A program made the translations under genes and the position numbers. Below, piece after piece: positions 15,145 through 63,524 of a stretch of 64,000 nt of DNA (position 1 is its first letter; each line of letters begins with the position of its first letter). This DNA comes from a virus (Duplodnaviria; Caudoviricetes): the IMG/VR virus record IMGVR_UViG_3300020577_012633, positions 59,216-123,215 of that record, one strand, 5' to 3'. The notes below the pieces were generated by a model. The model ran no database searches, was not told the DNA's origin, and saw only the letters and a program-made list of their open reading frames with translations.

Positions 15145-15158
15145 TTTAACCTTTCAAA

Positions 15159-15233
15159 TGCCCTCGGCGGGACTCGAACCCACAACTCTCAGAATTTTAG
15201 AGATTCCGGTTCTGCCAATTGAACTACGAGAGC
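15159..15233 (-). tRNA. Amber suppressor tRNA (CTA)
   Basis: Full cloverleaf; anticodon arm GGAAT-CTCTAAA-ATTCT. Confidence 0.88.
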
Positions 15234-16617
15234 AATATCAGTCACCTTCAAACGAAAGAGAAAAAGGCTTTCTCCACATTCCGTAATTGTTCTTAATTTT
15301 CATACCATCAATAACTTCCTGGGGAGGAGAATTTGGAATGATAGTACACTGGTCTTCATGAACATTGAAGTCTCTATCTCCTTCGGCAGTTTTCGGGTCC
15401 ATGACCTTGTAAATAGCGCCAAACCAGGAGAAAGCAAACTTACCGTCATCACACTTCCACCAGCCAATATCTCCAATTGCATCACGATTCTTGCGAATCC
15501 TTCGCATAAGAGAAAGCGCCTCTTTAGAAACTTTAACCATTTCCTTAGAGTTTATAACAACGCATCCAAGGTTATCGTTCCCAGTAGGAAAGAAACCTTT
15601 GTTCTTCTTATGAGAAGAAGGACAAAAGACAATCTTGCCATCAATAGCAAAAATATTTACAGTAAATGGATTTGCCTTTTTTGTTGGTTTTTTGGTTTTT
15701 GTTTTACTGGTTAGAATTTTTGAACCAACATTTTTATTTTTTACTGTCATATTCTTATTTCCCGTACCAAGCCGCGATTGGTTTAATAATAGCAAAAGCT
15801 GACCAACAATGATAAACATAGCCAAAATCGTGACAATTCATTCTAAAACCTTTACCAATCGTCCCGTCAAAATCTTTAATTTCTTTTTCCCAATTATTAT
15901 CTAGATCAAAGTCATTCAAGTTTGCATTTTTCAACCATGCAATTACAAAATCTTTCCAGTCGATATCAAAAGTTTTTACTTCTATTTTTCTGGCTTCAGA
16001 ATTAATCGTAAAATATTGGTCTTTTGGGTCAGTCCAAAAAAGAACAAGACCTTTTCTTGGTACAATAGTATAATGAGAGGCTCCTTTAGGACAAAGAGCA
16101 GACAAATAATCAAGACACGCATTTAGTGTCTTATAATCGCCTCTAATATCGAATAATATGTTATTCATTTTATTCTGGATCTTTTTCAATAGCGACAGAA
16201 TGACCTGCTAATCCAAAGAAAACAACATCCGCAATTGAAAGCATGAACTCTCTATGTGGAGTCCTCTTAAACTCATGCAGGAATACTTCGCAATTTTCAG
16301 CCTGAACGGCAGCTTGTTCCAGCCTAGCTTTGATCTTTTCAATTTGACCGCTATTTATGGCGATAGAACGATCAGCAAGAAGCTGTGTCATCTTGCTTCT
16401 AAAATATTCTTCTTGCTCTTTGTAAAAGGAAACTTTTTTAGTAGCAGCCTCTATCAGCAAAGAACCTGGATATGTAAATTTCCATGTTTCCCGATTTCTG
16501 TCTTTGAATTCACTGTACATTTTAAATTCCTTTTTGAAGTTTTTCTTACTCTAAATTCGCCTTGAAAAGTCTAGGGCCAATTTTGTTGATGGAGGCAATC
16601 TCAATAACCAGTCTGTA

Positions 16618-33123: not shown

Positions 33124-33463
33124 TTATATTTCCTTGATCTTTTTGCATTTTATTTATACCGATAACATCTTGAAATAGCTTTATTGAGGCTTTACTTCCT
33201 CCAGCAATAGCAGCAGCAGTTAGAATAAAACCAAGAGTTTTAACTCCTTGAGTATTTGTCATAAAAGATATTACATCTATTTGCCAAAGTTTACATACAA
33301 AAAAGCAAACAGAAAATGCTATAATTTCTTTTATAGCTTTATTCTTTATAAGTTTTATTATATGTTTTTGTTCAAATACTAAAGCTAGTGACCTTTCTAC
33401 AAGGACTGCCAATATTGTTAATAACATAAAAGAATCAAGTATTGCAGTGGTGTTTATTTGCAT
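33104..33463 (-). CDS. Small membrane protein (holin-like)
   Basis: About 3 hydrophobic segments, AGGSK motif. Confidence 0.45.
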   Translation of the reverse strand: MQINTTAILDSFMLLTILAVLVERSLALVFEQKHIIKLIKNKAIKEIIAFSVCFFVCKLWQIDVISFMTNTQGVKTLGFILTAAAIAGGSKASIKLFQDVIGINKMQKDQGNINEIRQN

Positions 33464-34012
33464 ATATTCCCTTTTGTTTAGGCAATAAATCTCTAAGTCT
33501 TTATATTCAAGACAAAAAGATTAACAACCTCCAAGGAAATATCTATCAATTATGATGGAATCTATTACCCATATTCCAGGATCTAGGCCAAGGACATACA
33601 AAAATATCCCATAATTCATGCCTATAAACAAAAAGACCGACTCCGCTACCATCAGGAATCTTCGGAGGAGGGCTTTCTATATTTAGGCCATTATTTACAG
33701 ATTCTTCGTATTGATCACGAAAATCTTGATCTGCTATATCTTGTTTTCTTTGGTTCCCGCCCAAGCAATATTCGCAACGACAGCGCCAAGAATATCTACG
33801 ATCCTTGCACTGTCCTTTTTTTCTTGCTTGTTCTTGCGCGTTATATCTACGAAAAAACCAGGATTCTGGAGTTCCATGATATCCACAAAACAACTGACGA
33901 AATCGTTTTTCAGCAACGATTCGCGTTCTAAATCGACGTTCAGCTCTGTTCATTCATTTTTCCTTTGTAAGTTAAACAACCTACAAAGGAGCAAATGTTA
34001 TCCACCTTTTCA

Positions 34013-38021: not shown

Positions 38022-38104
38022 AACTAGATTCCTCCTAGTTATGAATTACTGTATTATAATGGAGCAGTCCTCTAAAAAATGGAGGAAAGCTCATGTATTT
38101 TTAC

Positions 38105-38452
38105 TGGAGCCGAGGGGAATCGAACCCCTGTCTTTAGCGAATCTTTCAAGCGTTACTACAAGTTTGTTTGATGATTTATCTTATCTCAATGTCTATCATC
38201 AACGAACATACATTGAGAGCATTTTTCTCTTATCTCAAACTGACTTAATGAAAAAGGTTTGGGTCAGTTCCAGCAGATGTTTTTCGCTAAACTCATTATC
38301 TGCGTCAAAAATTTAGCGGGTAGCCTTAATTAGGCTGCCATTGCGAGAGTGCTGTTGCCAGCTAGTTTTTTGCATACTTTTTACGAGTCCAGCATGCTCC
38401 TCGACTTGCAACGTTCTTGTCTAATCCCTAAATCGAATACCAGTACGGCCCC
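38105..38452 (-). ncRNA. ssrA: tmRNA, predicted tag (A)GNSTLAMAA*
   Basis: GGGGCCG/CGGCTCCA acceptor with G3.U70, T arm, internal ORF GGC AAC AGC ACT CTC GCA ATG GCA GCC TAA. Confidence 0.92.
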
Positions 38453-40612: not shown

Positions 40613-40740
40613 TGGACGAGAAGGAATTGAACCTTCAATCTTTGATCGGCGGACCTGCAAAGGTTGTCTAGTTTTCACCAGACTGCGAAGTGAGAGCGGC
40701 AGGTTCCTAATTCAATGTTCTACCTTTGAACTAATCGTCC
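40613..40740 (-). ncRNA. tRNA-like RNA with the anticodon arm replaced by a large structured domain
   Basis: GGACGA/TCGTCC acceptor, D arm GTTC-AAAGGTA-GAAC, T arm GAAGG-TTCAATT-CCTTC. Confidence 0.7.
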
Positions 40741-49290: not shown

Positions 49291-49412
49291 TCGCTTCGGA
49301 CGGGATTCGAACCCGCCAACCTCTTCATTATGAGTGATAACCGTCAACAATCGACCTATTCGGTATGTTGGAGTCAACGGGCTTTAGCGCTCTACCATTG
49401 AGCTACGAAGCG
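49291..49412 (-). tRNA. tRNA-Met(CAT) with 48-nt Y-RNA-like insert in the anticodon stem
   Basis: CGCTTCG/CGAAGCG, D arm, CT[insert]TCA-CTCATAA-TGAAG, T arm. Confidence 0.75.
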
Positions 49413-54811: not shown

Positions 54812-54872
54812 ACCAGTATGTTTGTGAAATAAGGGGTACGTTACAAGTGATAACCTTATTTCTTCGACTGGT
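54812..54872 (-). ncRNA. Minimal Y-RNA-like hairpin
   Basis: ACCAGT-CGAA-GAAATAAGG...CCTTATTTC-ACAAACAT-ACTGGT. Confidence 0.65.
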
Positions 54873-56170: not shown

Positions 56171-56571
56171 AATTCTAAACTAACACCATTTATTCTTATT
56201 CTTATGAAGGGCATTTCTTTTGTTATTTATAAAACTTCGCGCCTTTTTTATTGCAACTTCTTCTGGAAGATTTTGTAGTTTCTTTATTTCTTCTAAGCTT
56301 TTCTTAACTTTATTTGGATCGGTTGAAAGATTTGCAATATATCCAATAACAACAGCAAGCGTTATTCCATTACCTTTAGCATGAGGGCTTGCCCAATCCC
56401 AAATCTTGTCAAAAATTCTCTGTTGAAAAGCAATAGCTTTCCAATTGATTTTAACTTTACAATTATTTTTCTTTCTAAGCAAACGAATTTCTTTTATTTG
56501 TTTAGAAAGAACCTTTTGTTGTTTGAGAAGTTCTTCCAATCGTTTCGATATTTCATCTTGCTCATTCATAA

Positions 56572-56642
56572 AGACCAGATCAGGAATCGAACCTGCGATA
56601 TCAGTTTTGCAGACTGAACCCTTACCACTCAGGCATCCGGCC
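56572..56642 (-). tRNA. tRNA-Cys(GCA)
   Basis: TCAGT-CTGCAAA-ACTGA; U73. Confidence 0.9.
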
Positions 56643-56645
56643 AAT

Positions 56646-56790
56646 AGCTAGTATATTTAATTGGTCTGGGGTTAGCTCTCTAATCTTTCGACTTTGAGAG
56701 GTGCCTTACCGTTAGGCTACCCCGCCATATTTTCAAAAGGCGGGGATAAGATTTGAACTTATAATGTTAACCCATTCCATTCGACTAGCT
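56646..56790 (-). ncRNA. YrlA-like Y RNA (circularly permuted tRNA mimic)
   Basis: Order: stem with GTCGAATG, T arm, closed acceptor CCCCGCC/GGCGGGG, D arm, 3' stem. Confidence 0.8.
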
Positions 56791-56825
56791 GAATTTAGTT
56801 ATCGGCTTTTCAGCCAAAACTAACT

Positions 56826-57143
56826 CTATTTCACTCTTTTATTCCAAGCCTTCACAGCATCTCTTACTAACCAAGCTTCCCAAGGTTCTTTTTTAGAACC
56901 ATTCTTACTATTAGTTACTACGACCTTAGCAGGACATTTTGTACAGAAAGCTTTGACTACTTTATATGAGTCTGTAAAGACTTCGCCGGAATCCCATGAG
57001 CTGTGCCAATTCCTTTCATAATCAAGCTTAATATCAGGTTCTTTGTTGCCGCAAAATGGACAAGGTTTAAGATTACGATGAACTACAGTAAACTTTTGCG
57101 TTCCAACCTTGCTAGTATCAAGATATTCTATATTAGTTTTCAT
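56826..57143 (-). CDS. Lar-like (restriction alleviation) zinc-ribbon protein
   Basis: LKPCPFCG..CTKC..AWNKR. Confidence 0.7.
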   Translation of the reverse strand: MKTNIEYLDTSKVGTQKFTVVHRNLKPCPFCGNKEPDIKLDYERNWHSSWDSGEVFTDSYKVVKAFCTKCPAKVVVTNSKNGSKKEPWEAWLVRDAVKAWNKRVK

Positions 57144-57604
57144 AAACTCAATATATCCCAAGCAGCAGATGCAGCTATAGGACGACTCTTATAAGTACAT
57201 TGACCCGTATTTTCATTTTCAGCCCACCACCAATAGCAGCCAGCTTCGATTTTATGTAAAAGTCTCCAGCCATGAAGTTGTAAAGTGGACCAACAAGAAG
57301 GAAACAAGTCTTCCCTTATTACATCAATCGTTTCAGCTTGAATAATCATTTCTCATCACCATAATCAATTAATTTGCCTTTTTCTATCGTATAGCGGCAG
57401 TTCTCGTTTTGATAACCAAAAACTTTATCAAGTATTTTCTTTTCTTTAAGAGTTATTTCGCCTACATGAAAAAGACCAAAAATATATCCTTGACAAAAAT
57501 CCATAGTTGATTCATGTCCAAGAGCTAATCTATCTGTAATGTTTTTCAACTTTGTTGCATTTTTGTCAATATTCTTTTCGCTTTTATTCATTATTTTTGA
57601 CATA

Positions 57605-63451: not shown

Positions 63452-63524
63452 CGGTATGGGACGGTTTTGACCCGCCATCCTTCCACTATTCAAGTGGTCG
63501 CTCTACATTTGGAGCTACCATACC
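63452..63524 (-). tRNA. tRNA-Phe(GAA), atypical D and T loops
   Basis: CCAC-TTGAATA-GTGG; T loop GTCAAAA. Confidence 0.65.

What the first reader, a model, noticed from the sequence alone, without database searches (positions are those of the whole stretch)
56646..56790. Circularly permuted tRNA mimic with YrlA topology
Seen 5'->3': AGCTAGT-CGAATG, T arm ATAAG-TTCAAAT-CTTAT, acceptor 3' strand CCCCGCC, 12-nt loop, acceptor 5' strand GGCGGGG, D arm GCCT-AACGGTA-AGGC, an anticodon-position hairpin CTCTC/GAGAG with no 7-nt loop, then closing ACTAGCT. A GCCGATA promoter-like motif lies about 10 nt upstream. Known: this T / closed-acceptor / D order is the YrlA layout. The extra anticodon-position arm is a notable variant.
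Basis: partly seen in the sequence, partly recalled or inferred. Interest (0 to 1): 0.75.

Follow-up and report, generated by a model that had tools for sequence, protein, structure and literature searches.

The report
Huge-phage Y RNA mimicking permuted tRNA
A 145-nt RNA gene inside the tRNA cluster of a roughly 500-kb bacteriophage folds like a tRNA whose ends have been moved, and it carries the docking motif for the phage's own Ro60 protein, so it is a divergent member of the known Y RNA class and not a new kind of RNA.

Summary
On the minus strand at 56790-56646 lie a 7-bp terminal stem, a T arm, a loop-closed 7-bp acceptor stem, a D arm and an extra GNRA-capped hairpin (MFE z = -4.0).

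Four distinct copies (type A) in related huge-phage contigs, plus a simpler paralogue (type B), give 97.8% paired cells and 10 compensatory pairs.

The 5' strand carries GUCGAAUG, an exact match to the published YrlA Rsr-binding motif GNCGAAN0-1G. The phage encodes a full-length Ro60/Rsr and an RtcB ligase.

The 18-nt module string occurs only four times in 617 kb of two phage genomes. One copy lies in a tRNA-like RNA about 25 nt upstream of rsr.

The YrlA reading is supported, with reservations:
- There is no Rfam YrlA hit.
- The D and T stem sequences differ from the YrlA consensus.
- The gene lies about 80 kb from rsr.
- The "promoter-like" GCCGATA is half of a conserved small hairpin.
- The extra arm has a partial precedent in Deinococcus Yrn1.

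Verdict: a new variant of a known kind, of moderate interest. Interest is raised because the same phages also carry the module on tRNA-like RNAs of normal topology, so both circular permutations coexist.

The scan had noted the same RNA type on other DNA (e1-5466549).

The parts
56646..56790 (-). Whole type A Y-RNA-like gene (145 nt), from the P1 5' strand to the P1 3' strand
   Evidence: Sequence; fold z = -4.04; model R1 boundaries in 4 phage contigs
56784..56790 (-). P1 5' strand AGCUAGU (terminal stem)
   Evidence: Pairs with 56652-56646. P1 covaries between type A and the two type B sequences: 4 compensatory pairs, 100% paired
56778..56785 (-). GUCGAAUG, an exact GNCGAAN0-1G motif (proposed Rsr contact)
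   Evidence: Motif definition in PMC4201824; position. The bare motif is common genome-wide (about 17 per strand expected), so its position carries the weight, not its presence
56768..56783 (-). Conserved 5' module strand CGAAUGGAAUGGGUUA (internal loop plus P2 5' strand)
   Evidence: Invariant in all type A copies, near-invariant in type B and in the rsr-adjacent RNA of G001
56763..56767 (-). Variable-loop equivalent ACAUU, ending in U (U48-like, able to pair with the A15-like base)
   Evidence: Read; conserved-core criteria
56746..56762 (-). T arm AUAAG-UUCAAAU-CUUAU
   Evidence: 2 compensatory pairs against type B
56720..56745 (-). Closed acceptor: CCCCGCC, 12-nt loop UUUUGAAAAUAU, GGCGGGG (7 bp)
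   Evidence: 3 compensatory pairs within type A and 4 across A+B. A 7-bp stem as in M. smegmatis YrlA, which RNase P cuts
56703..56719 (-). UA linker plus D arm GCCU-AACGGUA-AGGC
   Evidence: stem invariant in all six sequences
56676..56700 (-). Extra hairpin CUCUC-AA-AGUC-GAAA-GAUU-A-GAGAG between the D arm and the P2 3' strand
   Evidence: Present in all 4 type A copies and absent from type B. The loop is GAAA or GCAA (both GNRA), with one G.U to A-U change
56653..56674 (-). 3' module strand UAACCCCAGACCAAUUAAAUAU (P2 3' strand plus A/U-rich internal-loop strand)
   Evidence: CCAGACCAA invariant in type A; GACCAAUUA shared with the rsr-adjacent RNA of G001
56646..56652 (-). P1 3' strand ACUAGCU
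56803..56816 (-).
   Evidence: Conserved with pair-preserving changes in 4 phages; no promoter-like site here
56572..56642 (-). tRNA-Cys(GCA) starting 3 nt after P1; its RNase P site would set the Y RNA 3' end
   Evidence: ARAGORN and Rfam. A tRNA-Cys follows type A after 3-4 nt in all four phages

Best explanation
This is a gene for a phage Y RNA of the YrlA type, a non-coding RNA that docks the phage's own Ro60/Rsr ring protein. Inferred steps: it is transcribed as part of the long minus-strand tRNA/ORF array. Its 3' end is set by RNase P cutting at the 5' end of the tRNA-Cys that starts 3 nt after the terminal stem. The terminal stem P1, with the asymmetric internal loop (CGAA on the 5' strand, an A/U-rich strand opposite) and the short GG/CC and UGG/CCA helices, forms the Rsr-binding module. 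The rest folds as a circularly permuted tRNA (T arm, loop-closed 7-bp acceptor, D arm) with the usual elbow contacts available, plus an extra GNRA-capped hairpin. By analogy with characterised Y RNAs, the tRNA-like domain serves as a nuclease-resistant scaffold and effector-binding surface. It would tether Rsr to a host exoribonuclease such as PNPase or to a tRNA-binding factor, within a phage RNA quality-control and repair set that also includes RtcB, a tmRNA and more than 20 tRNAs. Because the acceptor stem has 7 bp, the closed loop may itself be opened by RNase P and the new 3' end given CCA, as shown for M. smegmatis YrlA. Shown here: the sequence, the fold, covariation, conservation, the motif, co-occurrence with rsr, and the shared module next to rsr. 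Inferred: Rsr binding, the processing steps and the function.
For: The structure is real. The fold has z = -4.04. Four type A sequences are 99.4% paired with 3 compensatory acceptor pairs. Six A+B sequences are 97.8% paired with 10 compensatory pairs, 0 of 500 shuffles reach these values, and slid controls give 34-50%.
The RNA is conserved. It is 88% identical to L019 over 213 nt, against about 72-80% for flanking ORF DNA, and it keeps a syntenic position (Ser, Ser..., A, Cys, B, Cys) in four phage contigs.
An exact GNCGAAN0-1G motif lies at nt 6-13.
The tRNA core nucleotides are present: the UA linker, an A14/A15-like AA, GG in the D loop, the UUCAAAU T loop, and a U at the last variable-loop position (against the criteria).
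The phage encodes a full Ro60/Rsr (vWA_Ro60 204.7 bits, TROVE 115 bits, E about 1e-113 to 2nvo, 1yvp and 9nen) and RtcB. The 98%-complete relative G001 also has rsr and a CCA-adding-family enzyme.
The 18-nt module string occurs 4 times in 617 kb: type A twice, type B once, and once in the tRNA-like RNA about 25 nt upstream of rsr in G001. The reversed control gives 0.
Precedents exist. YrlA RNAs were reported in 22 phages, Yrn2-tRNA-Yrn1 form a polycistronic precursor, and a 7-bp-acceptor YrlA is cut by RNase P and gains CCA. phiLo Yrl1/2 bind phage Ro60 through a CGAA bulge and recruit host PNPase.
Against: There is no hit to Rfam YrlA (RF02553) or to the metazoan Y_RNA model, even at E <= 10, for the candidate or its relatives.
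The T stem (AUAAG/CUUAU) and D stem (GCCU/AGGC) differ from the near-invariant YrlA ones (GCGGG/CCCGC and GCUC/GAGC in the Rfam consensus).
The gene lies 83 kb from rsr (79 kb in G001), whereas published YrlAs lie within 4 kb.
The homologue set is small: six distinct sequences in two clades, from one phage lineage, in an alignment fitted to the model.
There are no expression data, and Rsr binding is untested.
The bare 8-nt motif is frequent in coding sequence.
Confidence: 0.72

Rival explanations
1. It is a tRNA-like decoy or processing element that works without Rsr. It might act as a sponge or decoy for host tRNA-targeting nucleases or tRNA-modifying enzymes, or as an RNase P punctuation mark in the tRNA array, with the resemblance to the Y-RNA module being incidental or ancestral.
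For: It sits in the tRNA array about 80 kb from rsr. It abuts a tRNA-Cys. It has a 7-bp acceptor typical of RNase P substrates. Its D and T stems are unlike YrlA's, and there is no Rfam YrlA hit.
Against: The most conserved part is not the tRNA-like core but the terminal module, which is invariant across types A and B while the stems around it covary. That module recurs on the RNA next to rsr and contains the exact published Rsr motif.
Confidence: 0.15
2. It is a circularly permuted tRNA gene that matures into a decoding tRNA, as in Cyanidioschyzon. The ends would be cut and joined (the phage has RtcB), and the acceptor loop would then be opened by RNase P and RNase Z.
For: The permuted order, the 7-bp acceptor and an intact elbow; RtcB in the genome; a CCA-adding-family enzyme in G001.
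Against: There is no 7-nt anticodon loop anywhere. The extra hairpin ends in a GNRA tetraloop, and the P2/P1 region is a conserved bulged stem. ARAGORN and the Rfam tRNA model do not call it. No bulge-helix-bulge motif was seen by reading (not formally searched). Splicing endonucleases are not reported in bacteria.
Confidence: 0.03
3. It is a decaying remnant of two tandem tRNA genes (the T half of one and the D half of the next), or a chance fold with no function.
For: Chen et al. warn that dimeric tRNAs can mimic YrlA, and the region is packed with tRNAs.
Against: The acceptor strands are mutually complementary and covary. The element is conserved better than its flanks in four phages. No tRNA in the window resembles either half beyond the universal loops. 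No shuffle folds as well.
Confidence: 0.03

Closest known systems
YrlA RNAs (Salmonella Typhimurium, Mycobacterium smegmatis, mycobacteriophage ET08; Rfam RF02553; PMC4201824, bioRxiv 10.1101/312249)
   Same: A terminal 5'-3' stem with GNCGAAN0-1G near the 5' end. T arm, loop-closed acceptor and D arm in that order. The UA linker, the D- and T-loop elbow nucleotides and a pyrimidine at the end of the variable loop. The genome encodes Ro60/Rsr. A 7-bp acceptor as in M. smegmatis YrlA.
   Different: No Rfam hit. The T and D stem sequences differ from the near-invariant YrlA ones. There is no V stem-loop before the T arm; instead an extra GNRA hairpin follows the D arm. The gene lies about 80 kb from rsr inside a tRNA array, not within 4 kb.
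Deinococcus radiodurans Yrn1 / Yrn2
   Same: Yrn1 is drawn with an 'anticodon arm' of 5 bp and no V arm. Yrn2-tRNA(Asp)-Yrn1 are made as one precursor, so Y RNAs co-transcribed with tRNAs have a precedent.
   Different: Yrn1 lacks a full D arm and lies next to rsr. Here the D arm is complete and the extra arm is longer (5+4 bp, GNRA loop).
Thermus phage phiLo Yrl1/Yrl2 with phage Ro60 (PMC12135203)
   Same: [quoted passage not shown] PNPase has to come from the host; no RNase PH-type domain was found in G000 or G001.
   Different: The phiLo Yrls lie directly upstream of Ro60, and the passages read do not describe them as tRNA mimics (the term 'tRNA-like' occurs 0 times).
Circularly permuted tRNA genes of Cyanidioschyzon merolae (Soma 2007, as cited)
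   Same: The 3' half comes before the 5' half, the acceptor is initially closed by a loop, and the ends pair in a stem.
   Different: Those mature into decoding tRNAs through a splicing endonuclease. Here there is no anticodon loop, and the host is bacterial.

Membership tests
YrlA-type Y RNA | T arm, loop-closed acceptor-like stem and D arm in that 5'-3' order, enclosed by a stem formed from the RNA's 5' and 3' ends | tested here: met
   Sequence and MFE fold; covariation in P1, the T stem and the acceptor
YrlA-type Y RNA | GNCGAAN0-1G motif near the 5' end (PMC4201824) | tested here: met
   GUCGAAUG at nt 6-13 = window 56785-56778; conserved in all type A and B copies as GYCGAAYG
YrlA-type Y RNA | Conserved tRNA-core nucleotides: UA linker, D-loop GG, T-loop UUC..A, pyrimidine at the last variable-loop position, 15:48 pair | tested here: met
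   UA; AACGGUA; UUCAAAU; ACAUU, giving an A15:U48-type pair. Read against the criteria. This is by sequence only, not by 3D structure.
YrlA-type Y RNA | Nearly invariant D and T stem sequences | tested here: not met
   The Rfam consensus has GCGGG/CCCGC and GCUC/GAGC. The candidate has AUAAG/CUUAU and GCCU/AGGC.
YrlA-type Y RNA | Scores on the Rfam covariance model RF02553 (gathering score 69 bits) | tested here: not met
   No hit at E <= 10 for the candidate or for type A/B in L019. Calibration: the published reference phage YrlA of ET08 reaches only 37.4 bits, so the threshold is strict, but the candidate gets no hit at all.
YrlA-type Y RNA | Genome encodes Ro60/Rsr, and the RNA lies within 4 kb of it on the same strand | tested here: not met
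   Rsr is present and on the same strand, but 83 kb away (79 kb in G001). A paralogous module-bearing RNA does lie 25-550 nt upstream of rsr.
YrlA-type Y RNA | Bound by Rsr; carries tRNA modifications (pseudouridine 55, dihydrouridine) | not testable with these tools
   Needs EMSA or co-immunoprecipitation and modification mapping
Canonical or permuted decoding tRNA | 5-bp anticodon stem with a 7-nt loop carrying an anticodon | tested here: not met
   The extra hairpin is 5+4 bp capped by GAAA/GCAA. It is not called by ARAGORN or the Rfam tRNA model.
Metazoan-type Y RNA (Rfam Y_RNA) | Match to the Rfam Y_RNA covariance model (lower-stem GGUCCGA/UUGACC helix with a bulged C) | tested here: not met
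   No Y_RNA hit at E <= 10. The 5' strand reads GUCGAA without the bulged C.

The most novel reading that the evidence does not exclude
One lineage of roughly 500-kb phages carries the same Ro60-binding module on both circular permutations of a tRNA scaffold. The YrlA-topology RNAs (types A and B) have their ends in the Ro stem and a closed acceptor, and they lie in the tRNA array. Normal-topology tRNA-like RNAs have a free acceptor end and the Ro module, capped by a loop, in place of the anticodon arm; these lie directly upstream of rsr and elsewhere. If all of them bind Rsr, Y RNAs in these phages form a multi-member toolkit made by grafting a Ro-binding stem onto tRNAs. The normal-topology members could be processed by RNase P, given CCA and perhaps charged. 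That would link Ro60 physically to the tRNA repair and translation machinery during infection, and it would offer a living intermediate for how YrlA arose.
Probability: 0.3. Interest if true: 0.78.

Novelty: new variant of a known kind. Interest (0 to 1): 0.58.

Why it matters
Bacterial and phage Y RNAs are known, but their effector side (what the tRNA mimic recruits) and their origin remain open questions. This RNA is a divergent subfamily that the curated Rfam model cannot see. It sits in the tRNA arrays of huge phages that also encode Ro60, RtcB, tmRNA and a near-complete tRNA set.

It offers three natural experiments:
- A 7-bp acceptor predicted to be cut by RNase P.
- An added GNRA arm.
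- Sister RNAs with the same Ro module in ordinary tRNA topology.

These make two questions directly testable: what part of the tRNA mimic matters, and whether YrlA arose from tandem tRNAs or from a module insertion followed by permutation. It also shows that surveys restricted to within 4 kb of rsr undercount Y RNAs.

Tried and rejected
- Rfam scans gave no YrlA or Y_RNA match: gathering on the whole window, E <= 10 on 801 nt around the element, RF02553 on the whole 123-kb record, and E <= 10 on the L019 type A/B region.
- blastn of the region against 50,697 catalogued phages gave no match.
- An exact junction pattern in viral contigs gave nothing.
- The flanking Lar-like ORF and the phage Rsr, used as protein probes in viral contigs, gave nothing.
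- The relaxed pattern CGAANGGAATGG..CCANACCAA in metagenome contigs gave at least 120 matches. The 80 fetched are coding-like chance matches: none scored with model R1, and only 7 have a GTTCRA string. The single metagenome scan was therefore wasted.
- The second viral pattern (module plus T loop) added only one real locus, L149 (type B). L146-L148, L150 and L151 are chance matches, as is L021 from the first viral pattern scan.
- The second GUCGAAAG inside the extra hairpin is not a second Rsr motif; relatives have AAUCGCAAG there, and it is simply a GNRA-capped stem.
- The promoter reading of GCCGATA is rejected.
- Descent from a neighbouring tRNA is rejected.
- The 2014 supplement and the 2020 review could not be read.

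Full report
**Observation.** In order it contains:
- AGCUAGU (P1 5' strand).
- CGAAUGGAAUGGGUUA.
- A 5-nt variable-loop equivalent, ACAUU.
- T arm AUAAG-UUCAAAU-CUUAU.
- CCCCGCC, a 12-nt loop, then GGCGGGG.
- UA, then D arm GCCU-AACGGUA-AGGC.
- A hairpin CUCUC-AA-AGUC-GAAA-GAUU-A-GAGAG.
- UAACCCCAGACCAAUUAAAUAU.
- ACUAGCU (P1 3' strand).

The minimum-energy fold forms every one of these helices. Its energy is -43.8 kcal/mol against -29.5 +/- 3.6 for 200 dinucleotide shuffles (z = -4.04), and no shuffle does as well. ARAGORN and the Rfam tRNA model do not call it. Both call a tRNA-Cys that begins 3 nt after the last base.

**Context.** The window is part of a 123-kb IMG/VR virus record estimated at 24% complete, which implies a phage of roughly 500 kb. 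All genes are on the minus strand. The window holds at least 21 tRNAs and a tmRNA. Outside the window the same record encodes two relevant proteins. One is a full-length Ro60/Rsr of 555 aa (vWA_Ro60 204.7 bits, TROVE 115 bits, E about 1e-113 to D. radiodurans Rsr 2nvo, Xenopus Ro60 1yvp and 9nen). The other is an RtcB ligase. No sigma-70-like promoter or intrinsic terminator flanks the element.

**Homologues and covariation.** I turned that wording into a pattern and searched the viral contigs. Model R1, built from the candidate, then found two kinds of hit.
- Four distinct type A sequences, all with the extra hairpin: the window, L019, L017 and L020.
- Two distinct type B paralogues without the extra hairpin. 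They lie one tRNA-Cys downstream of type A.

Within type A, 99.4% of cells pair and three acceptor pairs change on both sides (CCCCGCC/GGCGGGG against UUCCCCC/GGGGGAA). Over A+B, 97.8% of cells pair and ten pairs show compensatory change (4 in P1, 2 in the T stem, 4 in the acceptor). None of 500 shuffles reaches these values, and sliding the partners drops pairing to 34-50%. The caveats are that there are only six sequences, in two clades, in an alignment fitted to the model.

The extra hairpin keeps a GNRA loop (GAAA or GCAA) and shows one G.U to A-U change. The RNA block is the best-conserved non-tRNA DNA in the neighbourhood, at 88% identity to L019 against about 72-80% for ORF DNA. Neither half of the tRNA-like domain resembles any tRNA in the window beyond the universal loops.

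**The module and its link to Rsr.** Chen et al. [quoted passage not shown] The candidate has GUCGAAUG at nt 6-13. The bare motif is common in this genome (about 17 per strand expected, 55 observed on the coding strand), so only its position counts. What does not vary across types A and B is the module: GYCGAAYGGAAUGG on one strand and CCARACCAA on the other. P1, the T stem and the acceptor covary around it, which is the pattern of a protein-binding site.

In the 98%-complete relative G001 (494 kb), rsr is also present. A 123-nt tRNA-like RNA lies about 25 nt upstream of it on the same strand. Its anticodon arm is replaced by ...CCUGACCAAUUACUU-ACC-GAACA-GGU-CGAACGGAAAGGGUUA.... This is the same module, with P1 reduced to 3 bp and capped by a loop. 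The 18-nt string GUCGAAYGGAAWGGGUUA, allowing up to 2 mismatches, occurs four times in the 617 kb of G000 plus G001: type A twice, type B once, and this rsr-adjacent RNA. The reversed control gives zero. G000 has the orthologous RNA about 550 nt upstream of its rsr, with GUCGAUAGG.

**Membership.** Features met:
- The layout.
- The 5' motif.
- The tRNA core nucleotides: UA linker, D-loop GG, UUCAAAU, and a terminal U in the variable loop allowing an A15:U48-type pair.
- An rsr gene in the genome, on the same strand.

Features not met:
- The Rfam YrlA model gives no hit at E <= 10 for the candidate or its relatives.
- The T and D stems differ from the near-invariant GCGGG/CCCGC and GCUC/GAGC.
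- The gene is 83 kb from rsr (79 kb in G001), not within 4 kb.

As calibration, the published reference YrlA of mycobacteriophage ET08 reaches only 37.4 bits against the 69-bit threshold. I therefore file this as a divergent YrlA-type Y RNA, working like YrlA, and not as a demonstrated member of RF02553.

**Mechanism.** The steps below are inferred.
- The RNA is read through from upstream genes.
- Its 3' end is made by RNase P at the adjacent tRNA-Cys. The spacer is 3-4 nt in all four phages.
- P1 plus the CGAA internal loop dock phage Rsr. This is the geometry described for phiLo Yrl RNAs, which bind phage Ro60 and recruit host PNPase.
- The tRNA-like domain gives nuclease resistance and an effector surface.
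- No RNase PH-type domain is encoded in G000 or G001, so an exonuclease partner would be the host's.
- The 7-bp acceptor matches the one YrlA known to be cut by RNase P and given CCA in vivo. G001 encodes a CCA-adding-family enzyme.

**Rivals.**
- An Rsr-independent tRNA decoy or punctuation element remains possible (0.15).
- A maturing permuted tRNA is disfavoured by the lack of any anticodon loop.
- A tandem-tRNA remnant or chance fold is disfavoured by covariation and conservation.

**What is new.** Phage Y RNAs and the permuted-tRNA description of YrlA are published, and an anticodon-like arm has a precedent in Yrn1. Four things differ here:
- The subfamily is invisible to Rfam.
- It lies in a tRNA array about 80 kb from rsr, conserved in two genomes.
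- It has an extra GNRA arm.
- It coexists with normal-topology tRNA-like RNAs bearing the same module, so both circular permutations occur in one genome.

**Dead ends.** Catalogued phages, flanking-protein probes and the metagenome scan gave nothing usable.

Noticed in passing
L006:13441-13564 (-) = G000 33441-33564, outside the window; orthologue L024:1227-1349 (+) in G001: A tRNA-like RNA in normal topology (7-8 bp acceptor, D and T arms, Rfam tRNA 43.0 and 39.6 bits). Its anticodon arm is replaced by a 65-nt insert carrying the loop-capped Y module. It lies about 550 nt (G000) or about 25 nt (G001) upstream of rsr on the same strand, and is the circular-permutation partner of the candidate.
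   Followed up: partly
window 49291-49412 (-): A second normal-topology tRNA-like RNA (acceptor CGCUUCG/CGAAGCG, D arm GCUC/GAGC, T arm GCGGG/CCCGU). A long arm CCGUUGAC/GUUGACGG encloses UCCAACAU-ACC-GAAUA-GGU-CGAUU. It starts 3 nt after tRNA-Lys, and neither Rfam nor ARAGORN calls it.
   Followed up: partly
window 40613-40740 (-): A 128-nt Rfam tRNA hit (43.0 bits) with 62 nt in place of the anticodon loop, containing GCAGGUCCG paired with a GGAACCUGC-type strand. This may be another Ro-stem-bearing tRNA-like RNA (fold z = -3.4).
   Followed up: partly
window 54812-54872 (-): A 61-nt hairpin between two tRNA-Ala genes: P1 ACCAGU/ACUGGU, with CGAA opposite CACAAACAU, then stem GAAAUAAGG/CCUUAUUUC. 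It looks like a YrlB-type simple Y RNA with the same internal loop (fold z = -2.0).
   Followed up: partly
GUCGGAG or GUCGAUG follows the 5' strand. The motif is inexact and the fold z-scores are only -2.7 and -1.1, so these are weaker candidates.
   Followed up: partly
window 56171-56571 (-): In the relatives a type B Y RNA lies between the two tRNA-Cys genes. In this phage that interval holds an ORF of about 129 aa with no Pfam match, and no type B copy.
   Followed up: partly
window 56803-56816 (-): A conserved 14-nt GAAA-capped hairpin directly after the stop codon of the upstream ORF and 12 nt before P1, with pair-preserving changes in other phages. It may be a 5' processing or protective element of the Y RNA.
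   Followed up: partly
window 56727-56738 (-): The first loop base after the acceptor 3' strand (the discriminator position) is U in all four type A copies, as in the adjacent tRNA-Cys, and types A and B always alternate with tRNA-Cys genes. Any link to tRNA-Cys identity is speculative.
   Followed up: no
window 38102-38452 (-): A phage-encoded tmRNA (Rfam 125.8 bits), which ARAGORN did not call.
   Followed up: no
window 15158-15234 (-); also L017:8424-8503: A tRNA with a CUA anticodon (called 'Pyl' by ARAGORN), so an amber-suppressor-type tRNA, conserved in a related phage. The ORFs nevertheless read open under table 11 in the region examined.
   Followed up: no
window 56826-57161 (-): The upstream 111-aa ORF weakly resembles the restriction-alleviation protein Lar (PF14354, 24.5 bits, below the 28.6 cut-off). 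Its C-terminus is conserved in the related phages.
   Followed up: partly
window 63452-63524 (-): A tRNA called by Rfam (43.3 bits) but not by ARAGORN, between tRNA-Asn and the next tRNA-Asn.
   Followed up: no
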